DNA of 64,000 nt, from the NCBI RefSeq assembly GCF_006345805.1, contig NC_043002.1:23994001-24058000 (forward strand), written 5' to 3'. The notes below the pieces were generated by a model. That model ran no database searches. It worked only from the letters and a program-made list of their open reading frames with translations, and had not been told where the DNA came from. This DNA is from Octopus sinensis. Taxonomy: Eukaryota. This document shows positions 1,251 through 59,908 of this stretch, in pieces (position 1 is the stretch's first letter; the number at the start of each line of letters is the position of its first letter). Made by a program: the position numbers and the translations under genes.

Positions 1251-1406
1251 TAAATACGAAAGTAAAGGTACAAAAATGTGTTTTCACATAAATGCTTTCA
1301 TGAAATAGTTTTACTGTAAAAATATTTCAGTTCTATATTTAAGAGGTGAGGAATTATGTACATTGTTTACATTTGACGGATATTTGTCTTCATCTTGTTT
1401 GTTGTT

Positions 1407-1452
1407 AACACAACATTTCAGCTGATATACCCTCCCACCTTCATCAGGTATC
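1407..1452 (-). ncRNA. Minimal type I hammerhead ribozyme motif (family 1, decayed)
   Basis: Minus strand reads GAUAC-CUGAUGA-A-GGUGGGAGGGUAUAUCAGCU-GAAA-UGUU-GUGUU. Stem I is GAUAC/GUGUU. The inverted copy at 6353-6393 has stem II GGCUG/CAGCU and GAAACAUU, so the ancestor was probably GAAACGUU. Confidence 0.75.
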
Positions 1453-1516
1453 TTAGGGAAATTTCAAACCTGGGTTCTCATTCCTAAGGTAATTTTCAAT
1501 ATTATTATTATTATTA

Positions 1517-4500
1517 TTTTTTTTTTTTCTTCTTTCAAATTTGCTTCCATTTCTTGCCGAGTGTCTTCCCGACTCCTAGGGCAAAGAAACTCATAGTATA
1601 CATTGGTAGGCCATTAAACTAAACTCAATAGTTCGTTCATTTAGAAAATTTTTTTTTTTTAAAGTTAAATTAAAATACATGGGTAGTAATAGTTCTCACA
1701 TTGACAATGCTCTTCTCAATACGTGTGATGTACCAGTTAAGACAATCTTTTGCACTTCTTGCAGGGATGGTAAGCCAGGGATCATTCTCATATAATTTTC
1801 GGTTTCCTTCTTGATCATTCCTAGTGCTCCTACAATCACTGGTATTGTAACCGCCTTGAGATGCCACATTTTCTCAATTTCAATGAGCAGGTCTTTATAT
1901 TTTCTGAGCTTGTCAAACTCTTTCGCCGAGATATTATGATCACAGGGGATGCTCATGTCGATCAATAAACAAACTTTATTGTTTTGGTTTTTCACAACAA
2001 TATCTGGTTTATTGGCTTTGATGGTTCGGTCTGTATGTACTGGAAAGTTCCACAGAATCGTTACATTTTCTCCTTCAGTTACAGCTTCAGGGTGGTGATT
2101 ATACCACTTGTCGGCAGTTTTGATATTGTAATGCCGACTTATTAGCCAGTGTAGATATTGGCCAACTCTGTCATATCTTAATTTATACTCCACTGGTGCT
2201 AAGACTTTACATCCAGAGATTAGGTAGTCCACTGTTTCAATCATGTCGTTGCAGAATCGGCATTTTGGGTCTGCTCCAGTTTTCATCACATTGGCCTGGT
2301 AGTTCCGGGTTAATAGGCTTTGATCTTGAGCAGCCAGGATGAAACCTTCGCTCTCTGCTTTTAGCCCTGAGCTCCGTAGCCACTGATGGGTTTGCTTCTG
2401 GTCAACATCAGCTTGTTTGCTGCGGGCCACATATTTGCCGTGCAGAGGTTTCTCCTCCCACCTATCAGCCAATTGCTCGTGCGCTTTTTTCGTTGCCATT
2501 ATTTTCACCTTCTTTGCAACAATAGTTGCCGTACTTCCCTCGGGTTGTTCAGTTTGGGTATCCTGCACGAGATCAATAGCAAATTTTTTGCTTTCCTTTA
2601 TGATAGAATGAAGCTTCTTTCATCTCTCGTGATTTTCCACGAGCTTTAGCATCCAGTCATTCATTATTTCAAGATATTTGGCCAGTCCAATTGTGGTTGT
2701 TTTGTAAGCTAGTTCAAATTGGATCAGGCCTCGACCTCCTTGGGCTCTGGGAAGGTAAAGGCGATCTACGTCTGCCTTTGGATGGTGCATCCTATTACAA
2801 CTCAGCAGCTTGCATATTTTCCTATCTATATTCTTTACTTCACTCATATTCAAGTTCAACACATTGTAGCTATAAGTAACAACTGGAACTGCTAAGGAAT
2901 TTATAGCTAACACCTTGTTACGTGCATTTAGTTCATATTTCAGGACTGCATGAACTCTCCTATAACATTCCTTCCTGATCTTCTCTTTCATGCTTGCATG
3001 CTGAATACCAGAGCCTTCATTTATCCCTAAATATTTGTATGTTTGTTCTTGCTCAAGCTCTCTTATGACTGTGTTAACATCTAACACGACTGAATTTGTG
3101 GTCTTCACTTTCCCTTTGTGGAAAGTGGCCTTGGCACACTTCTCAAGCCCAAACTCCATCCCGATGTCATCGCTGAATGCTTTCACAGTGTGCAATAGGC
3201 CTTCAAGTTCATTATCGTCTTTACCATAGAGTTTTAAGCCATCCATATAAAATAGATGGCTTATTTTTTTATTGGCAATTTTATACCCATACCCTGTTCT
3301 GTTTAATTCACTTGTAAGGGGTATTAGGGCTATGCAGAATATTAAAGGTGAAAGTGAGTCACCTTGAAAAATTCCACAGTTGATGTTTATATTTTCTGAG
3401 GCAAGTACTCCATTAGAGTGGTATAATTGTTGATTCGTATTCCACAACGACATATTGTGCTTCAGGAAGCTTGAAATCACAGGGGAAATTTTGAAGATGT
3501 CCAGCGATCTCAAGATCCATGGATGCGGTATACTGTCGAAGGCCTTTTATAGTCAATCCATGCGGAGCTGAGATTTCTGCGCTTGTGACATTTCTCAAGG
3601 ATCATACGATTAATTAGCAGTTGATCTTTGCATCCGTATGAGCCTCGGTGGCACCCTTTTTGTTCAATGGGGAAAATATCGTTCTTCTCCATGAATGCAT
3701 ATGTTTTCTCCGCCAGGATAGATGTTAGGATTTTATATGTGGTGGATAGACAGGTTATTGGCCGATAGTTTTTTGGAAGATTGGTTTCGTTATTCTTTGG
3801 GAGTAGGTAAGTAATACCACTTGCTAACCATTCAGGTGTTTTCTTTGGGTCTCTCATAATTCCATTGAGCAGCTGAACTAGCTTACTGTGTGCACATGGG
3901 AGCGATGCGAGCCAGAAATTTCGGCACCCTATCTTTACCGGGGGATTTCCAATTATGGGCCTTCATGAGTGCCTTTCTTAGGTCTGCTATTGTGATGTCT
4001 TCCCATGCTTGTTGTTGTAAATTTTGGTAGGATCCTTCGGTTTGTATAATCCAGTTTGCATTTGTGTTGTACGTCTTCTTGTCACTCCAAATCCTTTTCC
4101 AAAAGTTTTGAACTTCTTCCATGGGAGGGGGGTCTTTAATGGTTACTTTCTCCTTCCCTATTTCTCTGTAGAATTTTTTGGCATTGGATGTGAACAGCTT
4201 GTTTTGCTTGTAAAACTTGTTTCTCTTCTCAAATCTTCGTATTCCTTGAGCTTTTGCTTGGAATTTTTGTTTCAGCGTTTCTTTTATTGATATCAGTTCT
4301 TCTCTTGGTGAGGATCCAAATTTTCTCTTCATCTTTCTTCCTGTTCTGGATCTTACATCATTTCCACATATTAAGTTCATTTAATATTGATATTTCCCCT
4401 CTCATAAATTCAATCTCTTTTTCAATTTTACTTCTCCAGGTTTGATTTCTTCCCAGGTTTGGTTTTCTTTGTTTTTTGGGGGGCATACAGCTGGTTTCAA

Positions 4501-6247
4501 TTGCCCTAGCAGAAGCGTAAATAATTTCATTTAACTCAGTAAAATCAGGTTTTAATTCTTGTATTATTTCATTTGTTACATAGTTGCCAATTTGGATTTG
4601 TTTTTTATTTTGGTTTGTATTTGAGAGTTTATGAAGTGGTTCTCTATCATTCATACTTGTATGTCTTACAACTTCAAGCGTATTCAGGATTTTCTGCCTC
4701 ATTTCTGCCATAGACTCTCTGTGTTCTTCAGCAAATGCGAGATCTTCAGTTACTGTTGTTTTATCATTCTCCTGGCTATCTTTAACAGGTCCAATAGAAT
4801 TTCTTGTATCTTCAGGCCTTTGCGTACTTTGGTCAGATGGCAGTCTTTCAATTAAGCATCTGATTCTTCATTTCCTTTGTGTCTTTATGTCATTTTCCGT
4901 TGCGTGCTTGATCGCACTTATTTCACTGTCTGTGAGTCTGTTATTTCTAAGGATATCCCTCCTCACATTTGCCAATTTGTTCTCGTCCAAATAGGGCCTA
5001 CTGTCTTGATTCCGTGTTCTCCATATACTGTAAGAGTTTGCGGTGTGTCTCTCTTGAGATGGCCTACCTAATGCATAGTAATAAGTGTATATTACTTCTT
5101 TATACTCTTCTAGGGTCTATTTGTTCCGCTTACATTTTTCTTTCTGTGGTGGTTGTGGTGGTGAACTTGGAGGGCTCGAGTTGGGGAATTTCCCGTTCAA
5201 GTGACCATCCATGTCCGTATTTGGAGAAGAGTTTGTGCCAGTTGATGACTTTTCGATCCCAGGCTGGCTCTTCCCTGGGGGACGTGCTTCCAGATTAACC
5301 ATAGGACAAGCGATTTGGTATACTGATTTAGTTTTCCTTTTAGTTTCCAAAAACATTTTGGTGCTACGGTAATGTTATCATTTTTGAGCTTTGATTGGCT
5401 CGTGGGGAGACAGTGTCTGTCTGTCTCATTGGCTGGCTGGGTGGTTGGCTGGCTGACTGTCTTCCAAGCCAGAATTCTTGCCTGTCAAATAATACTTTCA
5501 TATTTGGTTAACATCTAAAGAAGGTTTGTGTTGGCTGAACTCTGTGAGTGTGTGTGTGTGTGTAGATAGATAGATAGATAGATTATCAGCACTATTACTA
5601 TCATTATTATCATCATCACCATCAGTGATATTTTAATTTTTTTATTTTTAGGTGGGGTCCTGGTAAAAAAAAGTTCAAATGTCTGCTACTACTAGCCTTA
5701 AGAAAAATTCAGGAAGGGCTGTTCTGTATTGTTTGTGAATAGAGAAGTTGTGTTCCACCAGAGAGAATCTTAGCATCATTATTTTTTTTTTTCCATGTGT
5801 GTTTGTGTTATTGCAATAAAAAGTGTTTGTATATTTCATGTAAGGTAATATTGTGGAGGTTGAAGTTGACTTTTCTAGAGATGTTTGTATGTCCAGTTAG
5901 AAGAACAGGTGTGTTTTTGCAATAAAAAGTATATGTTTACATTTATATTTGAATATTCAGGGAGGAAGCAAAGAAAAGTCAGATTTTCATAGAAAGTTTT
6001 AAGGTTTTGTAAGTCCACAAAAAGAAAAGCGTGATGTTTTTAGAGAGAAGAAAAAGAAAAAGGATGTTTACAGAGGCAGTTGTGTGTATTAAAGTTTTTA
6101 AAGCTGATTGGATGTATGTTTGAAAACTGTAAATATGTAAATTTGTAAATTTCTTAACTTATTTTGAAGAGAATTTTAAATACTCACAAGATATTGTAGA
6201 TGTTCCAATCTTTAAGAGTTATTTTTCCCCGTTGCTAAACTGGGTCA
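1517..6247 (-). mobile_element. Near full-length R4/Dong-clade non-LTR retrotransposon (RT plus restriction-like endonuclease)
   Basis: Flanked on both sides by (TTA)n, with a poly(A) remnant at 1517-1528. Encodes RT, a CxxC zinc knuckle and a C-terminal PD..D..K nuclease, with no APE domain. Confidence 0.88.
1696..5302 (-). pseudogene. Fragmented single ORF of the R4/Dong element
   Basis: ORF pieces carry KSPGKD, NYRPITCL, EQKG, GIFQGDSLSPLIF, HLFYMDGLKLY (YMDD changed to YMDG), YKYLG, CRFC..ETVDYLISGC, KPDIVV, LLIDMSIP and KLRKY. Several frameshifts and stops. Confidence 0.9.
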
Positions 6248-6277
<30 letters not shown>

Positions 6278-6282
<5 letters not shown>

Positions 6283-6353
6283 TCACTGCCTGGAATCGAA
6301 CTTGGAATCTTGGGGTTAGTAGCCCACGCTCTTAACCACTATGCCATATGCCC
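6278..6353 (-). promoter_or_regulatory. tRNA-derived Pol III head of the HHR-SINE
   Basis: Minus strand GGGCATA-TGGCATAGTGG (A box)...GTTCGATTCC (B box). It has an anticodon-like arm GGG-CTACTAA-CCC but no proper acceptor stem. Confidence 0.8.
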
Positions 6354-6590
6354 TAATGAAGGCTGGAGGGTATATCAGCTGAAACATTGTGTTAACAACA
6401 AACAAGATGAGGACAAATATCTGTCAAATGTAAATAATATAAAAATATTTGTTTATGTTTTCACAAGGTGAGTTTTACACTCAAAAGAAAAGAGAGAAAA
6501 TCACACATTATTGAAAAGTTTTTGTGCAAAAAGGAACTGTTCCATATTTTCTTTCTTATTTATTTATTTATTTATATTATTTTTTTTTTC

Positions 6591-9232: not shown

Positions 9233-9602
9233 GCACAGGCATGCCTGTGTAATTAGAAGCTTGCTTACCAACCACATGGTTCCAAGTTCAGTCCCACTGC
9301 ATGGCACCTTGGGCAAGTGTCTTCTATTATAGCCTTGGGCCAACCAAAGCCTTGTGAGTGGATTTGGTAGATGGAAACTGAAGAAGACCATAGTATATAT
9401 GTGTGTGTGTGTGTGTTTGTTACCCCCACCATCGCCTGATAACTGATGTTGGTATGTTTACGTCCCTGTAACTTAGTGGTTCAGCAGAAGATATCAATAG
9501 AATAAGTACTAGGTTTAGTCTTGGTGCCAATTTGTTCAACTAAAGGCAGTGCTCCAGCACAGCCGCATTCAAATGACTGAAACAAATAAAAGAATAAAAG
9601 AA
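9231..9602 (+). mobile_element. CORE-type tRNA SINE family B (octopus OR-like)
   Basis: tRNA-like head, caccttgggcaagtgtctt CORE-like motif and tail gactgaaacaaataaaagaataaaag. Matches the copy at 44791. Confidence 0.8.
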
Positions 9603-9802
9603 TATATATATGTAAGTACACACACTCATGCACACACACTAATCATCATCATCATCATCATCGTTTAACGTCCGTTCTACGATGATGATGATGATGATTA
9701 GTGTGTGTGTGTGTGCATGAGTGTGTGTACTTACATATATATATTCTTTTATTCTTTTATTTGTTTCAGTCATTTGAATGCGGCTGTGCTGGAGCACCGC
9801 CT
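9544..9802. repeat. Near-perfect fold-back inverted duplication with arms of about 120 bp
   Basis: Arms 9544-9664 and 9679-9802 flank a 14-nt spacer. They differ by one substitution and by (CA)n length. Confidence 0.92.
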
Positions 9803-10693
9803 ATATAGAAGAATTGGTTTGGGGGTTGAAAATGCACCTGGCTCTTAAAAGAAGTAATTTTTAAAAAATTTATGAAAATACCATATCACTTTTAACATTT
9901 TATTTTGTTAGTTTTTTAAATGGTAAATAAAAAATGAAAATTAAAAAGAACAAGATGATAATAGTAAGAAGAAAAAAAACAGAATGCTCGCTCAGGAAAG
10001 GGAGGTTCTGCAGAAATGAAAACATGTTCAACAATTAATCTTCAATAGGTTTCCTAGCAAAATTACATGCTGAAAATTCAAGTATTCAGTAAGTTTCACA
10101 GCAATAGGAAATGATGGAAGTTTGAATGCTCAATGAATTTTATAACAAGGAAACCAGAAGGAAAGATCCATTAAAAGATGGTAGTGTTTAGGTAGCTGTT
10201 TATATTTGTTGTTGAAATTACAATGAAAAGAATTTTATTTTTGTTTATGATAGGAACCTGATAAATAAGTCCAAATGTCATAAAACAAATTTAAAAGTAG
10301 ATGGCAGAAATCATACCAGTAAACGAACATAATGGAGTGAAGAAAGAAAAAAAATTATCAAAAATAGTAGAATGAAATTAGTAAATAAGAGATGAAAGAA
10401 ATAATAAATAAATAACAAACATCATGGCTACTGAGTGGCAAAATGTTTGTTTCCTAGCTGCATAGTTTCAGGCACAGTCCTACTACATGGCACTTTGGGC
10501 AAGTGACTTCGATGACAGCCCCAAGTTGGCCAAAGGTTTGTGAGTGGATTTAGGAGACTAAACTATAAGAAACCTGTCATGTATTTATATATGCTTTAAA
10601 ATGTAGTTCTATCGATGTGCTGGTTAATCAATGCTTTTCTCCATTTTCTAATTATTTGCATTGGTTCCTGATAAACTTTTGTTTATCTTGTTG

Positions 10694-12732: not shown

Positions 12733-13006
12733 GGTGTGAGAGGATGTATTTAAATGTATATATATTCACATCTGTCTAACTGTTAAAATTTCTCGATACA
12801 GTGAAACTCAAATGTAAATCTCCCAGCTTAACATCTTATTGTCCCACCTGAGGAGTCTTCTATGCATTGTGAGTTGCATCTGGTGTTATTGCATTTTTCC
12901 ACACCAACAAGGGAGTGGTGCATCTTGAAGATGAAACAATTCTTGAGGTAATATAAATTTTTTTGTTGGTACATTACATCTTCTCTTTTTATCTTTAATA
13001 TATATA

Positions 13007-13260
13007 TGTAAATGTAAAATGTGACAATTATTTGGTAACCATGATAAAACTCCGAGTTTTGGATGCTGGGGTGGAAATCCACTCCGCAATCTCTTCAGTT
13101 ATCTGGCCATTGGAAAAAATGCTATGAAAATTTCCACCCTGGCATCCGAAACTCAGAGTTTTATCATGGCTACCGAATAATTGTCACATATTACATTTAC
13201 AGATAAATTCCTCTATTTACATAATATCGAGGTCTCTTCCATTCTTTGTTTTTTTTACCA
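13007..13260. mobile_element. Penelope-type non-autonomous element with 72-bp inverted arms
   Basis: Arms 13007-13078 and 13130-13201 are reverse complements with a few transitions and overlap an HHR motif. Confidence 0.7.
13043..13103 (-). ncRNA. Type I hammerhead ribozyme motif (family 3)
   Basis: Minus strand GAUAA-CUGAAGA-[GAUUGCGGAGUGGAUUUCCACCCCAGCAUCC]-AAAAC-UCGGA-GUU-UUAUC. Stem I is GAUAA/UUAUC. The inverted arm keeps the intact CCGAAAC at ~13146-13152. Confidence 0.7.
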
Positions 13261-13885: not shown

Positions 13886-14500
13886 TAAACATACACCTTT
13901 ATCTCCTTGATTTCATTACTTCCTACCTCTATTCATATACATATATAACAATTGGTTTGTATCTTTGTTATTAATTATCATAATTGTTAATTCCATAGCT
14001 TCTAGATTGATTGCAGATTGATTTTTGCCTTTCCATAGTTTGAAAATGCCTAATGATATAGTTGGCAATTTAGCATGTATAATAATGGTGTAATACATTA
14101 AGTGCAAATAAACTGCTATGTTACTGAAACATTTGTGTGTGAGTATGTGTATCACCTCCTCTTCCTGGACCCACTCCTATTTCCTTCACCTTCCTCAAAC
14201 TGATTCTCACCACTGACCCTGCCTCCTTCCCTGCTTGCCGTTCACTGTACCTATATTCCCTATCTCTACCCTTCTGTTACTCACCTCACACTCTCACAAA
14301 CTTGCCTGATCTTCTGTCTCTGTCTTCCTCACCTGTTCCTCTGTCCCCATCCTCCTCACATTCACCCTCTTGTACTTTGAGGGTACATGCTGACTTCTCA
14401 CCACCATCATTTTCTTTCCTGTTCCAGCTGGGGTAGTGATGTATCTCCTTTACAGACAATGTTTTGTCACCAGTTCTTCTGTGAGAAACATGTCTGGTAA

Positions 14501-14735
14501 GGCGGCAAGCTGGCAGAAACATTAGCACGCCAGGCGAAATGCTTAGCAGCATTTCGTTTGCCATTATGTTCTGAGTTCAAATTCCGCCGAAGTTGACTTT
14601 GCCTTTCATCCTCTCGGGGGTCGATAAATTAAGTACCAATTATGCACTGGAGTCGATGTAATCGACTTAATCCATTTGTCTGTCCTTGTTTGTCCCCTCT
14701 ATGTTTAGCCCCTTGTGGGCAATAAAGAAATAAGA
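14501..14735 (+). mobile_element. SINE family A, CpG-rich copy
   Basis: Head ggcggcaagctggcagaaac, B box gagttcaaattcc and tail gggcaataaagaaataag. Confidence 0.85.
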
Positions 14736-37859: not shown

Positions 37860-38635
37860 GGGAGGGTATTAATTGATACCACTGGCCCCTGAAAGATGAA
37901 TTGCTAAGTTGGCTTCAGTGAGATTTGAAGTCAGAATGAAAAAAATTGGAAGCTAATACCACAATGTGTTTTTTTTTTAACAGTTCTGCTAGTCTTCTCC
38001 CCTGTGTGACCTAATATTGGTTTCAAATTTTGGCACAAGGCCAGCAAGTTCAAGGAAGGGGCCCAATGCTTAACTGGTACTTTATCAACCCTGAAAGGCA
38101 GTCAACCTCAGTAGGATTTGAATTCAGAATAGACTAAATGCCACTAAGCATTTTGCCTGGCATGCTTAATGATTCTGCCAGCTTGCCACCTTCTATGTGA
38201 CCTAATAGAATTCACCATTATTGTTGCAAGCTGGTAGTGCAGTGCATAAAATATCCTATTTAGTTAATTTCTGTTTATGTTCTGGGTTTAAATCCTGTCA
38301 GAGTTGACTAAGTTTTTATGTCAGGCCCTTACTTGAATACCAGTCATTAACCCTAACCCCTTAATTACAGAGTTGTACTTATTTACACTTCTCTATATTC
38401 ATTGAGGTCAATATAATTGTATCATTAAGGTGGTGAACTGGTAGAAACATTAGCATGCTTGGTGAAATGCTTAGCGGTATTTCGTCTGCCATTACGTTCT
38501 GAGTTCAAATTCCGCCGAGGTCAACTTTGCCTTTCATCCTTTCGGGGTCAATAAATTAAGTACCAGTTACGCACTGGGGTTGATGTAATCAACTGGCCCC
38601 CTCCCCCAAAATTTTGGGCCTTGTGTTGAGTAGAA
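37860..38635. mobile_element. Cluster of family A SINEs in both orientations
   Basis: Minus copies at ~37860-37990 and 38016-38190; plus copies at ~38230-38340 and 38428-38635. Confidence 0.75.
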
Positions 38636-46481: not shown

Positions 46482-47610
46482 ACGTGTTCTGATCAATAAG
46501 TACCCGGACTGTTGCCATAGTAACGAAGCTAAAGCACACAGAGTGAAGACACTTGGCACAGATTGACCTTGAACTCTGCTGTGCATGCACGCAAAGTTTT
46601 ACCATTCTAGCTCACTTCTGCTGTTTACAGCAGTGCTTGGAAGGAAGGTGTATAGCATGTGATTGTTGCATTGACCATGACAGAGAAAGTGGAGCTGAGA
46701 ATCTGCATCAAATTTTGCCAAAAGCTTGGTGATATCTGCTCAGAGGCCTACATAAAGGTTTCAAAAAGTTTTCATCGTTTTCATAAAGGCAGTGAGCTGG
46801 CAGAAACGTTTGCACACCAGGCGAAATGCTTAGTGGTATTTCATCTGCCTTTACGTTCTGAGTTCAAATTCCGCCAAGGCTGACTTTGCCTTTCTTCCTT
46901 TCGAGGTTGATAAATTAAATACCAGTTACGCACTGGGGTCAATGTAATCGACTTAATCCCTTTGTCTGTCCTTGTTTGTCCCCTCTATGTATGGCTCCTT
47001 GTGGGCAATAGAGAAAAAAAATGTTTTCATCGTTCTTGACACAATCAAGATCTTGTGCAATTGAAACCCGAGTATCTTTTTGGTAGCTGAAAGCAGTTTT
47101 GGCACAAACTTGGCAGACACGCGTCTCATACCCAAATCTTCAATGATAATGGACTGAACTGAACCGTAACTAATCTGCACATCCTCTGATAACTTACGGA
47201 TAGTGATTCGATAATTTTTCCCTCACACTGCATGCACATCTGTGACATTTTTCTCAGTTCTGCTGGTTGCAGGTCTCCCAGAACGTTTGTCAATATCGAC
47301 ATTTTTTTGCCCATTTTGGAAGTGTCTGAATTACTTGTACACTTGTGTGGAACTCATACACTCCTCTCCATATACTTTTTGCAATTTTGCGTAGGCTTCT
47401 GAGCAGGTGTCGCCACGACAACTTTCTCTGTTATGGTCAATGCGACGATTGCACGCTACACATCTTCCTTCTTGTAAACAGCAGAAGTGAGCGAGAACGT
47501 TAAAATTTGATGTGCATGCACATCAAAGTTTAAGGTCAGTCTGTGTCCAGCGGCTTCACTCTGCGTGCTTTAGGTACGTTACTCTAGCAACACTCCGGCT
47601 ACTTAGTGGT
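46482..47610. mobile_element. Fold-back mariner derivative built from two opposed 5' halves
   Basis: 46494-46765 is the reverse complement of ~47370-47607. The plus arm encodes MTEKVELRICIKFCQKLG and the minus arm extends to EDLGMRRVSAKFVPKLL. Confidence 0.85.
46786..47022 (+). mobile_element. SINE family A inserted in the mariner derivative
   Basis: Direct repeat gttttcatcgtt at 46768-46779 and 47023-47034. Confidence 0.88.
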
Positions 47611-51568: not shown

Positions 51569-51908
51569 GTAAGCAGGTATTACTTTTTTTTGCGAAGTTC
51601 TTAAATTTTTAATTAATTTAATTGCTTATCCTCCACAAATGCCTAAATGTAACGTACAGAGTTGTCCTTAAATTTTGAACACAAGTCTTGAAGGATAACT
51701 TCAACTCACTTGAATGACTGTAAAATGTTATTTATCGCCGCTGTTTTAATACCATTGTTTGACAGAATAATTTTGAACGTTAAGCCAAAGTCTGTAGCTC
51801 TTAGTATTGAACTTTGAAACTTAATTACAATTTTTTACAAACTATAGTTGTGTAATGTTGGACTGCTTTATCCCATCTGTACTTCTCTTTCATTACTGGA
51901 ATATGTTT

Positions 51909-52170
51909 ATTATTTACATTCGACGGTGTCTTGGGGAAACTTCGAACCTGGGTTCTCATTCCTAAGGTAGTTTTCAATGTTGTTATTATTATTGTTCAGG
52001 TTACTGCTTGGAATCGAACTCAGAATCCTGGGGTTAGTAGCCCGCGCTCTTAACCAGTACCCATATGCCCTGAAGAAAGGGCGAAATGTGTTAACAACAA
52101 ACAAGAAGAGGACAAATATCTGTCGAATGTAAATAATGTACATAATTCCTCATCTCTTAAATATAGAGCT
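51909..52170 (-). mobile_element. tRNA-headed HHR-SINE, copy 2 (no LINE insertion), in LYPLAL1 intron 1
   Basis: Same order as copy 1: tail, short (TTA/TTG)n, tRNA head, then inverted tail starting CCTGAAGA. Approximate flanking duplication ggaatatgttt / agaatatattt. The sense-arm HHR is deleted. Confidence 0.85.
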
Positions 52171-53189
52171 AGAATATATTTGATTTTTAAAATATTCCTT
52201 ATTTAGCGTAATTTCATTTATTTTTGTCTTTAAAATGTCGGTACTTGCATGTTTAAAGAGAAACCGGCATTTAAAAACCGGTGTTTTTTTTATAATTTAC
52301 ATTTGGGCATAACTACAATTTGGTGTATCCGCCTCTTTATTTATTCATAGTTTTCTAAAATACATCTTTTTAATGTTATTATCAAATGCATTTTTCAAAA
52401 TGTTATATAGAACGAAGTCGGAGTAGAGGCAGGGCACAAATTTACTGAGAAAAGGGTTTGTCCATTGAAATAAACCTTGATATATAACTGGTACTTATTT
52501 TATCAATTTGGAAAATACACTATGGATAGATAAAGTCATACGACAAGGAGGGATAGTAGAACATATTGACACGACCACCTGGAACTATATATTGCATACC
52601 TACACGTTGCTAGCTTACAATATTTGTCACTTCTTTTTCCAATGTTGAGTGAAAGGGTAGCCCTTTGCAGTGTCAACACTGCATACCTGTTAATCAGGAA
52701 GAACCTGGCCTAAACAAAACTTGCCTTATGGAACTGACCAGCTAACATATCTGGCTGTTGCCCTCTCTTGGTAAGCTTCCATGGTGACATCAAATTAATC
52801 GTCATACTTGAATACAAATTGGCGCTCACCATATTTAATCGTATTCAATCATATGGCTGGATACTTTTCCTAATACAACCGTTGTTAGTGCTTTATTCTA
52901 GTAGCCTTTATACACTGATTTGCCAAGCAAGACAATTTTATTTATAGGGGTACAAACATCACCACTACCTATGCAGTGTCAATGCAAAGATATATAAAAA
53001 CAAGAGCACATGCACACACAACAGGCTTCCAAACAGCTTGTGCCTACCAAATTTCATCTCAAAATATTGGCCACCACAAGGCTATAACACAAGACATTCA
53101 CTCTAGATGCCATGCTATGCAATGGAATTGAATCCAAAACTGTGGTTGTGAAATTAACTTCTTAACCACACAGATATTCCTGCACTCTT

Positions 53190-58733: not shown

Positions 58734-59669
58734 GTGAGTATCATATTGAAATGGCACTTTATTACTCTTTGTTTTCTCTTCATTATCACCACCATTATTA
58801 TTAAAGGGTACATTATTCTGCCGTGGTCAACTTTTTCATCCATTCAGGGTCAAGTACTGGGGTCAATGAGTAGGATTATTAAAAGATACATAATATAGTC
58901 CCAGATGGAGGGGTCAGGGCTGTTCATTTGGGCAGGTGTAGACTAAACATTTACGGTAATCATCATCATTACTGTCATCACTCACTTCTATCAACACTAT
59001 TGTCATCATGATCAATAAAAGCATGAATTCCATTAAAGGCAATATAAGCAGTATTGTTGTTCAGTGCCAGGTCAATCCAGATTAAACAGAGCTTCTTTGG
59101 CCATGATCATCTAGTCTTTTCAAGGGTATCTATAACTATATTTTCCTATATTTTTTTTCTTATTTGAAAGGGTGTAATTTGATGATGCTATTTATAGCAA
59201 GCTGGGTAATCACGAAGAGGTACACTTGTTGGTTTTATGATGATGATAGACCTGCCAACCAATGTTTGTGGTCCTGTTATATTTCAAAAGCTCGTGAATT
59301 TATTCAAGTGTAGTAAATTTTATAATAAACTTCTTGGTACCACTTCATATTGCTCTAAGAATATTTATCTTTGTTGTAGGTATAATGTAATATACATACA
59401 GCCAGCAACAGCACCTGGTCTTGCCCAGGTTCATACATAACATAAACATAACATCATAAATTTGCTGTTTTGGATGATTTGCTTTAAAAAATGCTAAGAA
59501 GCTTCAGCTAATCTAGGATTGTTATTTCATTAAGAATTGTTGCACCTAAGCTATCCAGAAAATGATCCATGTTGAGCTTCATAAAATTTTGCAGAAATAC
59601 TAATATAGAATTTAATATAAAATTCTGCTTTAACATTTTTATCAAAATACTGTATTGATATAATTACTA

Positions 59670-59908
59670 AGGCAGTGAGCTGGCAGAAACATTAGCATGT
59701 GAGCAAAATGCTTAGTGGTATTTTGTCCATTTTTATGTTCTGAGTTCAAATTCCACTGAGGTTGACTTTGCCTTTTGACCGTTTGGGGTTGATAAAATAA
59801 GAGTTGAAAAATAGGGTTAATGTAATAATAAGAGTTTAACACTAGGGTTAATGTAATCAACTTAGCCCCGCCCCCAAAATTGCTGGCCTTGTGCCAAAAT
59901 TTGAAATC
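59670..59908 (+). mobile_element. SINE family A in LYPLAL1 intron 3
   Basis: ggcagtgagctggcagaaac...ggccttgtgccaaaatttgaaa. Another copy lies at 61898-62070. Confidence 0.8.

What the first reader, a model, noticed from the sequence alone, without database searches (positions are those of the whole stretch)
1328..6439. tRNA-promoter SINE with a hammerhead ribozyme and a Penelope-style inverted tail (candidate Pol III retrozyme family)
Seen: with the LINE removed, the element reads on the minus strand as a tRNA-like A/B-box head, (AAT)n, a short body, then GAYAC-CUGAUGA-A-stem II-GAAA(C)GUU-GUGUU and a tail. An inverted copy of the tail abuts the head, and the whole is bounded by an 11-bp duplication. 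A second copy at 51909-52170 has the same layout, and in both the inverted arm begins right at the CUGANGA core. The two arms of copy 1 carry reciprocal CpG-type changes (GAAAUGUU and GAAACAUU), which reconstruct a palindromic AACGUU stem III. Known: Penelope-like elements carry minimal HHRs that work as dimers and form inverted pseudo-LTRs, and HHR repeats with Pol III features exist (for example schistosome Sm-alpha). Inference: this is a self-cleaving SINE mobilised by Penelope rather than LINE machinery. I do not know whether it has been described in cephalopods.
Basis: partly seen in the sequence, partly recalled or inferred. Interest (0 to 1): 0.9.

Follow-up and report, generated by a model that had tools for sequence, protein, structure and literature searches.

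The report
Penelope retrotransposon with a tRNA promoter
This apparent SINE is the end repeat of a protein-coding Penelope-like retrotransposon that carries a tRNA-derived promoter sequence and a hammerhead ribozyme motif; its thousands of short copies were likely made from RNA polymerase III transcripts, and the full-length element was possibly transcribed the same way, which would be unusual for a transposon that encodes its own protein.

Summary
The repeat is real and abundant (roughly 10-20 thousand head-bearing arms), and its hammerhead motif fits the minimal Penelope type. It is not a separate SINE. Head, (AAT)n, body, hammerhead and tail together are the pseudo-LTR of an autonomous Penelope-like element (PLE) found in the same genome. 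In that element the tRNA-Arg(ACG)-like A/B-box head lies about 35 nt after the ORF stop, and 'body + ribozyme + tail' encode the first ~52 codons of the ORF. Short copies insert head-to-head with one long and one short arm (34 of 38 pairs) and ~12-nt target duplications (38 of 49), the known PLE signature. About 85% of arms stop just upstream of the tRNA head, 13 nt before the A box and 28 nt after a TATA. The ORF has no TTTT (P 0.008-0.04). Pol III transcription is therefore inferred, not shown. The family is about 5% diverged and probably inactive. No paper describing a tRNA-promoter PLE was found in ten searches.

The parts
1317..1327 (.). target-site duplication, left copy (TAAAAATATTT)
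   Evidence: family-wide duplications of 10 nt or more in 38 of 49 pairs vs 1.4% of 2,352 control pairs
1328..1411 (-). tail of the long arm, ending at the distal 3' end class (...ATAGAACTG); coding sequence of the PLE ORF N-terminus
1407..1452 (-). minimal type-I hammerhead motif (stem I GAUAC/GUGUU, core 1447-1441, bulged A, stem II with one mismatch here, GAAAU-GUU; predicted cut between 1412 and 1411)
1448..1499 (-). 'body': 5' leader plus the ORF start codon at 1481-1479 (in frame with the RT ORF; this copy has a stop at codon 6)
1500..1516 (-). (AAT)n tract, 3' half (split by the LINE)
1517..6247 (-). later insertion: frameshifted LINE (RT plus restriction-like endonuclease motifs, R4/Dong-like by recalled motifs) with poly(A), inserted in the (AAT)n tract
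   Evidence: (RVT_1 E=2.7e-16)
6248..6278 (-). (AAT)n tract, 5' half
6279..6353 (-). tRNA-Arg(ACG)-like head with A box (6346-6336) and B box (6301-6292); likely Pol III internal promoter; part of the PLE pseudo-LTR
6352..6439 (+). inverted short arm: broken hammerhead (CUAAUGA, GAAACAUU) and tail ending at the proximal 3' end class
6440..6450 (.). target-site duplication, right copy
51908..52070 (-). copy 2, head-bearing short arm: head, (AAY)n, body, hammerhead deleted, short tail
52069..52172 (+). copy 2, inverted long arm: CUGAAGA, stem II and GUU deleted, full tail; flanks share a 10-nt near-duplication with one mismatch (read by eye)

Best explanation
The element is a solo, head-to-head pseudo-LTR of an autonomous Penelope-like retrotransposon whose repeat unit is tRNA-like head, (AAT)n, start codon, hammerhead motif, tail, RT-endonuclease ORF; the short copies were likely reverse-transcribed from RNA polymerase III transcripts that start just upstream of the tRNA-like head. 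SHOWN: the unit structure; ORF copies that end in the head and others that begin at it; two 3' end classes about 25-31 nt apart; long+short pairing; ~12-nt duplications; a sharp 5' boundary at -6/-7; no TTTT in the unit. INFERRED steps: (1) TFIIIC binds the A/B boxes (helped by a TATA overlapping the ORF stop where the upstream unit survives) and Pol III starts near G(-6). (2) With no T4 terminator it reads on through the ORF into the next pseudo-LTR. (3) The PLE protein nicks both target strands about 12 nt apart and primes cDNA at the two internal sites of the tail, as shown for the anole element in PMC11167929. Priming in the first tail gives the SINE-like copy; priming in the second gives a full-length copy. 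(4) The two cDNAs run off the RNA 5' end and join by fold-back or annealing at the GCCC-AC-GGGC near-palindrome, or by microhomology. (5) The hammerhead would cut only as a dimer or with protein help, 3' of the start codon, so it likely regulates the RNA rather than producing the insertion template.
For: Full-length copies L078 and L064 run tail-ORF-stop-35 nt-head-(AAT)n-body-hammerhead-tail; 57 of 147 sampled head arms are linked to the ORF end (sample enriched for them). RT domain RVT_1 E=9e-9; 60 homologs at E<=1e-30 with the same RT architecture. The frame through hammerhead and tail aligns with a relative's N-terminus (42% over 246 aa) and is open from an ATG in the body. 3' ends: 113 of 130 arms in two classes; 34 of 38 pairs long+short. 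Duplications 38 of 49 vs 1.4%. Both arms share the N7 variant in 39 of 43 pairs (Fisher p=3e-4). Exact pattern counts moving 5': 4,406 / 3,317 / 1,277 / 377 / 595, roughly 19.9k / 13.6k / 6.0k / 2.0k / 2.4k after correcting for mutability: a step down at the head start and flat beyond it. In 42 of 43 unlinked arms that reach GCCC, the match to PLE upstream sequence ends within 2 nt of -6. Head matches tRNA-Arg(ACG) best of 10 tRNA types tested, 49 of 68 columns in the best-scoring copy, with both boxes kept. T4 runs: 0 in the 2,458-column majority of 31 ORF copies; the 24 seen in single copies are sporadic; nulls expect 2.6-4.3 (P=0.04, 0.03, 0.008). The window LINE of like composition has 8 in 3.77 kb.
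Against: No transcript evidence: RNA reads from a related species cover the repeat equally on both strands, 86-87% run on into unrelated flanks, and no start or end pile-up was found. The T4 signal is modest and rests on one ancestral sequence; G4 runs are also absent (expected 1.07, P=0.28). A TATA 28 nt upstream also fits Pol II, and other PLEs have Pol II-type promoters and palindromes at the pseudo-LTR 5' end (PMC2377424, PMC3846280), so the 5' boundary alone does not name the polymerase. An uncapped Pol III RNA would need cap-independent translation; PMC10886601 assumes Pol III is too weakly processive for autonomous elements. No other PLE family was recovered from this genome as a matched control (all 30 loci were this family). 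The GIY-YIG region had no Pfam hit.
Confidence: 0.6

Rival explanations
1. Ordinary Pol II-transcribed PLE. The tRNA-like piece is a passenger (an old SINE head captured in the 3' UTR), the TATA at the ORF stop drives Pol II from the same start, or the GCCC-AC-GGGC hairpin triggers template switching on a longer RNA. The short copies are plain 5'-truncated pseudo-LTRs.
For: TATAA lies 28 nt before the boundary. PLE pseudo-LTRs with TATA/Inr-like motifs and 5' palindromes are described (PMC3846280, passages). Penelope of D. virilis has a TATA-less internal promoter with a DPE-like element (PMC2377424, passages). About 15-20% of head arms do continue into the ORF. No discrete RNA seen.
Against: Both promoter boxes are kept at consensus while the tRNA stems have decayed. 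The boundary sits 13 nt before the A box, where tRNA genes start (established knowledge). The unit lacks T4. No G at -7 in 43 arms (weak). A 4-bp stem with a 2-nt loop is a weak RT barrier (inference).
Confidence: 0.22
2. One reading: an independent SINE lineage with its own short source copies, mobilised in trans by the PLE protein; ORF-linked heads arose once by recombination.
For: 80-87% of head arms have no ORF upstream. Short copies keep A and B boxes and meet the SINEBase length, copy-number and tRNA-identity criteria. Some short copies could have acted as secondary sources.
Against: Short copies contain no sequence absent from the PLE. Both N7 variants occur in both classes (head-start 78 T / 13 A; ORF-linked 35 T / 17 A). 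ORF-bearing copies also begin at the head start (L200, L065, L080, L066, L063). The head is linked to the ORF end in reads of a related species too.
Confidence: 0.13
3. Non-LTR retrozyme: hammerhead cleavage of tandem transcripts gives monomers or circles that are the template for insertion.
For: Minimal hammerhead with palindromic AACGUU stem III. A head-less, internally deleted tandem derivative with two hammerheads occurs at several loci. Animal retrozymes derive from PLE pseudo-LTRs (bioRxiv 10.64898/2026.07.22.740005).
Against: Copies span the cut site and end 45-85 nt past it; no end class lies at GUU|GUGUU among 130 arms. The layout is head-to-head, not tandem. Hammerhead mutants did not change insertion for the anole PLE in vitro (PMC11167929). 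No read-end pile-up at the cut site.
Confidence: 0.05

Closest known systems
Endonuclease-bearing Penelope-like elements of the Penelope/Poseidon type (e.g. anole PAc, PMC11167929; Adineta Pen2, PMC3846280)
   Same: Single RT + C-terminal endonuclease ORF; hammerhead in a pseudo-LTR that overlaps the ORF start; cut site 3' of the start codon; two 3' end classes giving a one-sided tail; inverted 5'-truncated partner; short target duplications; palindrome at the inverted junction.
   Different: The pseudo-LTR begins with a tRNA-Arg(ACG)-derived A/B-box cassette and an (AAT)n leader; no intron is needed; the unit lacks T4. Described PLE promoters are Pol II-type (PMC2377424). Clade assignment here rests on domain order and recalled motifs, not on a tree.
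Minimal PLE hammerheads (Cervera and de la Pena 2014, PMC4209133)
   Same: CUGANGA and GAAAC-GUH with no loop 3, unpaired base before stem II, G10.1-C11.1, short stem I, opposite-strand pairs 100-700 bp apart attributed to truncated PLEs.
   Different: Stem II is 6 bp rather than 7-8; H17 is U. Cleavage was not tested here.
TRIMp3: Cassandra, Helenus, Ajax (Kojima 2024, PMC10886601)
   Same: A small-RNA-derived Pol III promoter inside the terminal repeat of a retroelement, probably from a SINE head captured in the repeat.
   Different: TRIMp3 are short non-autonomous LTR elements with PBS/PPT and 4-5 bp duplications. Here the cassette sits in an autonomous, protein-coding PLE.
Schistosome Sm-alpha/Sj-alpha hammerhead SINE-like repeats (as reviewed in PMC6765202)
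   Same: Pol III-type promoter followed by a hammerhead.
   Different: Sm-alpha units are tandem and processed by cleavage, with the promoter left at the 3' end of the cleaved unit. Here copies are head-to-head, uncleaved and part of the autonomous partner.
Octopus tRNA-derived SINEs OK, OR1, OR2 (Ohshima and Okada 1994; paper not seen)
   Same: Recalled, unverified: some are described as tRNA-Arg-like. The short form may already be catalogued as one of these or as a Repbase SINE.
   Different: OR2 is listed as a CORE SINE (PMC4758252), and this body is PLE coding sequence. No sequence comparison was possible (SINEBase supplement not readable).

Membership tests
Minimal PLE hammerhead (type I) | CUGANGA core and GAAAC-GUH with palindromic stem III, no loop 3 | tested here: met
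   Column majority; core intact in 166 of 216 arms, all five criteria in 74 of 216. N7 is the only core position with a common non-CpG variant (79 T / 25 A of 109).
Minimal PLE hammerhead (type I) | Stem II with G10.1-C11.1 and an unpaired base before it; stem I of 4-5 bp | tested here: met
   GGCUGG/UCAGCC and GACAC/GUGUU; stems I+II at -13.0 kcal/mol vs MFE -13.6 in a natural copy. A distant PLE (L239) has GGUAGG/CCUGCC and UACC/GGUG, i.e. changes on both sides of pairs (read by eye).
Minimal PLE hammerhead (type I) | Match to Rfam hammerhead models | tested here: not met
   No hit at E<=10; folding z-scores of the three stem-II-bearing arms folded were -0.7 to -1.3.
Minimal PLE hammerhead (type I) | Self-cleavage as a dimer or with protein | not testable with these tools
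   No read-end pile-up in three RNA-seq runs of a related species, which such libraries would not be expected to show.
Endonuclease-bearing PLE (Penelope/Poseidon) | Single ORF with PLE-type RT | tested here: met
   RVT_1 E=9e-9; 60 homologs; a 783-codon open frame in the column majority of 31 copies.
Endonuclease-bearing PLE (Penelope/Poseidon) | C-terminal GIY-YIG endonuclease | tested here: inconclusive
   CVYSIxCxCGxxYKGET motif visible (family label recalled); no Pfam hit for the 149-aa piece at E<=0.01.
Endonuclease-bearing PLE (Penelope/Poseidon) | Pseudo-LTR with hammerhead, one-sided tail, inverted truncated partner, target duplication | tested here: met
   The tail is mostly 25-31 nt, slightly under the 30-40 nt quoted in PMC8557442.
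Endonuclease-bearing PLE (Penelope/Poseidon) | Spliceosomal intron near the 5' end (some members) | tested here: inconclusive
   A 38-nt GT..AG candidate in the tail is not needed (frame open and conserved); no GT..AG joint among the 15 joints shown, 42 not shown.
Endonuclease-bearing PLE (Penelope/Poseidon) | Placement in the Penelope/Poseidon clade by RT tree | not tested
   No named reference PLE proteins were at hand.
SINE (SINEBase definition, PMC3531059) | Under 1 kb, 100 or more dispersed copies, at least 60% identity to a tRNA over at least 60 nt | tested here: met
   About 280-nt arms; 3,317 exact pattern matches; 49 of 68 columns vs tRNA-Arg(ACG) for the best-scoring of 30 heads.
SINE (SINEBase definition, PMC3531059) | Reverse transcription by a partner LINE; simple-repeat 3' tail | tested here: not met
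   3' ends are PLE tail sites inside the PLE ORF, with no simple-repeat tail.
SINE (SINEBase definition, PMC3531059) | Transcribed by Pol III | not testable with these tools
   Indirect only: boxes, start position, no T4.
Non-LTR retrozyme | Head-to-tail tandem units each with a hammerhead; circular RNA | tested here: not met
   Main family is dispersed and head-to-head. Only a head-less deleted derivative is tandem. Circles were not testable.
TRIMp3 (Cassandra/Helenus/Ajax) | Non-autonomous, two LTRs with PBS/PPT, 4-5 bp duplication | tested here: not met
   Autonomous partner carries the same cassette; duplications are about 12 nt.

The most novel reading that the evidence does not exclude
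An autonomous, protein-coding retrotransposon that replaced its Pol II promoter with a captured tRNA-Arg promoter, purged TTTT from its whole 2.7-kb unit, and was transcribed end to end by RNA polymerase III. One transcript served as uncapped mRNA, as full-length template and as the source of a SINE-like family: a retrotransposon that makes its own SINE.
Probability: 0.4. Interest if true: 0.82.

Novelty: new variant of a known kind. Interest (0 to 1): 0.62.

Why it matters
The usual division is that autonomous retrotransposons use Pol II (R2 uses Pol I) and only short non-autonomous ones use Pol III; SINEBase and Kojima 2024 both state it. A PLE with a tRNA promoter in front of a T4-free ORF would break that rule and would require cap-independent translation of a Pol III RNA. 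Even if only the short copies are Pol III products, the family shows a direct route from a PLE pseudo-LTR to a tRNA-headed SINE-like repeat. Its thousands of insertions also give rare in-genome statistics on PLE integration: paired priming at two tail sites, both arms from one source, ~12-nt stagger. The head-to-head arms would form long double-stranded RNA in host transcripts (inference). Limits: the insertion architecture and the hammerhead type are already known, and the family looks inactive in this genome.

Tried and rejected
Rfam scans gave no hammerhead or tRNA hit. A 38-nt intron in the tail would put an alternative ATG in frame; rejected as unnecessary because the unspliced frame is open and conserved in P0024. 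Junction at CUGANGA as a family rule: rejected, 2 of 142 arm ends. A separate SINE sharing the head: not seen; of the 30 positional loci, those without a downstream body hit were truncated, deleted or interrupted where inspected. Control PLE families in this genome: all 30 loci fetched with a distant PLE protein were this family; the Pfam family PF26215 was not in the library. Relatives with DNA context: none with P0024; nine distant loci with P0001, of which seven were examined (L241 and L244 left out as apparent repeats of L240 and L245); they have 1-15 T4 runs in the matched part, no A/B boxes and higher T content, so they are not matched controls. Sequencing runs: no RNA holder listed; three raw RNA runs of a related species and one contig set were laid and gave no start, end or splice signal. 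PDB search gave only weak group II-like RT hits. One search had an offset error in its ORF-link filter and was redone. Duplicate or overlapping loci (29 listed in the script) were dropped before the counts, four before and six. The scan's earlier findings held nothing. Papers not held: Lunse 2017 and Ferbeyre 1998; SINEBase supplement unreadable, which leaves open whether the short form is OK or OR1.

Full report
1. Observation. Copy 1 is as described: with the LINE (1517-6247) set aside, the minus strand reads head (6353-6279), (AAT)n, body, hammerhead motif (1452-1407), tail (to 1328), with an inverted arm at 6352-6439 and an 11-nt duplication at 1317-1327 and 6440-6450. Copy 2 differs: its head-bearing arm has lost the hammerhead and is the short arm, and the inverted arm carries the full tail but lacks stem II and GUU. 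Only copy 1's left arm keeps a full core. Rfam and ARAGORN see nothing.

2. A large family. The body-to-tail query has 4,350 first-look candidates. A 28-nt head pattern has 3,317 exact matches and its reversed control 0; corrected for decay this is roughly 12-15 thousand arms, and about 20 thousand (8-20 thousand by calibration) for the 3' half of the head. ORF-bearing copies differ from the column majority by a median 5.1% outside CpG, minimum 4.1% (31 copies), so the family looks inactive.

3. The autonomous partner contains the whole 'SINE'. In L016 the tail ran into coding sequence. Following it gave full-length copies (L078; L064, with L073 and L074 apparently the same locus): tail, ~2.3-kb ORF, stop, ~35 nt, then the same tRNA-like head, (AAT)n, body, hammerhead and tail. 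The ORF has an RT (RVT_1 E=9e-9), 60 homologs at E<=1e-30 and a C-terminal CVYSIxCxCGxxYKGET motif that I read as GIY-YIG from memory; Pfam did not hit it. The ORF frame is open from an ATG in the 'body' through hammerhead and tail (window copy), and this stretch aligns with the N-terminus of relative P0024 (42% over 246 aa, starting at PDEG/PDDG). So the short element is the PLE's pseudo-LTR, and its 3' part is the first ~52 codons of the ORF. The anole PLE is built the same way: ORF start in the hammerhead, cut site downstream of the start codon, RT initiating inside the ORF (PMC11167929; parts 1-2 of 4 read).

4. Integration signature. In 86 loci not selected on the tail (83 with hits), 113 of 130 arms end in two classes: 61 at unit positions 134-150 and 52 at 170-173. 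Of 38 head-to-head pairs, 34 are one long plus one short. Target duplications of 10 nt or more (one mismatch allowed) flank 38 of 49 such pairs, against 1.4% of 2,352 mismatched controls; the commonest length is 12. This is the one-sided tail and inverted partner described for PLEs (PMC8557442 and PMC3846280, passages) and explained by two RT start sites (PMC11167929). The two arms share the N7 variant in 39 of 43 pairs (5 A/A, 34 T/T, 4 mixed; Fisher p=3.3e-4), so they usually come from one RNA or one source locus. Junctions at the hammerhead core are rare (2 of 142 arm ends).

5. The hammerhead. The column majority reads GACAC CUGAUGA A GGCUGG-AGGGUAUA-UCAGCC GAAAC GUU GUGUU, matching the minimal PLE motif of PMC4209133 (parts 1-2 of 4 read). 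N7, the free core position, is the only core site with a common non-CpG variant (79 T, 25 A of 109). All five criteria hold in 74 of 216 arms and seven copies equal the majority exactly; stems I+II form at -13.0 kcal/mol (MFE -13.6), and the AACGUU palindrome pairs weakly between molecules (-3.5). A competing hairpin covers the cut site in two of the three stem-II-bearing arms folded. A distant PLE (L239, 30% protein identity) has the same motif with changes on both sides of stem I and II pairs (read by eye). No copy class ends at the cut site, and the cut would remove the start codon, so cleavage is more likely regulatory; it was dispensable for insertion in vitro in PMC11167929.

6. The head and the 5' boundary. 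Among 10 tRNA types recovered from this genome the heads score best against tRNA-Arg(ACG); the best-scoring of 30 heads matches 49 of 68 columns. Not all isoacceptors were sampled. The A box (TGGCGTAGTGG) and B box (GTTCGATTCC) fit the consensus I recall, while the tRNA stems have decayed. Exact counts of five 28-nt patterns starting at +39, +5, -6, -18 and -58 are 4,406, 3,317, 1,277, 377 and 595, roughly 19.9k, 13.6k, 6.0k, 2.0k and 2.4k after correction: about 85% of arms are lost across the head start and none over the next 40 nt. In the positional sample 6 of 30 loci by BLAST, or 7 of 36 arms, continue into the ORF; ORF-selected copies have 5' ends spread from -123 to beyond -1,600. Of 43 unlinked arms that reach GCCC(-6), 42 lose the match to PLE upstream sequence within 2 nt, and most continue as a mirror image of the head (29 of 43 at -8, 31 at -9). 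ORF-bearing copies that start in the pseudo-LTR begin at the same place. The boundary is 13 nt before the A box and 28 nt after a TATAA that overlaps the ORF stop.

7. No Pol III terminator. Three long copies have no run of four or more T on the sense strand. The majority over 2,458 columns has none; the 24 runs in single copies are each shared by 1-3 of 14-28 covering copies. Nulls expect 2.6 (synonymous shuffle, P=0.04), 3.0 (codon shuffle, P=0.03) and 4.3 (LINE codon usage, P=0.008); the antisense strand has 29. The window's LINE, of nearly the same composition, has 8 in 3.77 kb. Against over-reading: this is one ancestral sequence, G4 is also absent (P=0.28), and no matched control PLE family was found.

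8. RNA. No RNA run of this stretch is on record. Three 2026 RNA-seq runs of a related species gave 9,364, 7,527 and 6,941 reads, equal on both strands, 86-87% running into unrelated flanks, with far lower depth over the ORF, no start or end pile-up and no GT..AG joint among those shown. This is read-through of old copies and says nothing about the polymerase. The commonest loose end before the head is the PLE upstream sequence, so the head-ORF link exists in that species too.

9. Mechanism and rivals. Best reading (0.6): transcripts start near -6, likely by Pol III; the PLE protein primes on both target strands at the two tail sites; priming in the first tail gives SINE-like copies and in the second gives long ones; cDNA ends join by fold-back or microhomology. 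Rivals: a Pol II element with a passenger tRNA piece (0.22), an independent SINE lineage (0.13), a retrozyme (0.05). That the short element is a PLE pseudo-LTR mobilised by PLE machinery is far more secure than the Pol III step.

10. Prior knowledge. PLE hammerheads, tails, inverted insertions and PLE-derived retrozymes are known (papers above; bioRxiv 10.64898/2026.07.22.740005, parts 1-2 of 5 and passages, no mention of tRNA, Pol III or octopus). Pol III promoters in terminal repeats are known only for non-autonomous TRIMp3, whose author assumes autonomous partners use Pol II (PMC10886601, passages); SINEBase says the same of LINEs and LTR elements (PMC3531059, passages). Sm-alpha combines Pol III and a hammerhead (PMC6765202, passages). 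Ten full-text searches found no tRNA-promoter PLE, and passages of four mollusc or octopus repeat papers did not describe one. Repbase, subscription journals, supplements and Ohshima and Okada 1994 were not seen, so the short form may already be catalogued as a SINE. Verdict: new variant of a known kind, interest 0.62; the Pol III autonomous-element reading has probability about 0.4 and would merit about 0.8.

Noticed in passing
window 1517-6247; L026 and L028 upstream of the body: R4/Dong-like LINEs (label from recalled motifs) sit in or against this element's (AAT)n tract in at least three loci, so the tract appears to be a repeated target for them.
   Followed up: partly
L016/L031, L032, L037/L040, L051, L052 (all contig C27); similar junction in L035 (C3): A head-less derivative in which the tail plus 118 nt of ORF joins straight back to the body, giving ~290-nt direct tandem units with two hammerheads; this subfamily looks more like a true retrozyme than the finding itself.
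   Followed up: partly
G000:C2:3121910-3157893: Tandem array of about 90 tRNA-Arg(ACG) motif matches, mostly at ~206-nt spacing; 109 matches genome-wide. This is the likely donor tRNA type of the head.
   Followed up: no
L239:2383-2427: A distant PLE in a metagenome contig (30% protein identity) has a very similar hammerhead just after its ORF, with compensatory stem changes, but no tRNA head and 15 T4 runs in the matched region.
   Followed up: partly
window 14494-14666, 38422-38594, 46781-46953, 59661-59800 and others: A second, unrelated abundant interspersed repeat (families D12-D20), SINE-like; not examined.
   Followed up: no
tail, window 1359-1367 region: A 9-nt unit (GTAAATAAT) varies in copy number between copies, which keeps the ORF frame, and it coincides with the proximal 3' end class.
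   Followed up: no
window 9541-9805 and 13000-13208: Local inverted repeats with 122-nt and 79-nt arms (I1, I12); the first is rich in simple repeats.
   Followed up: no
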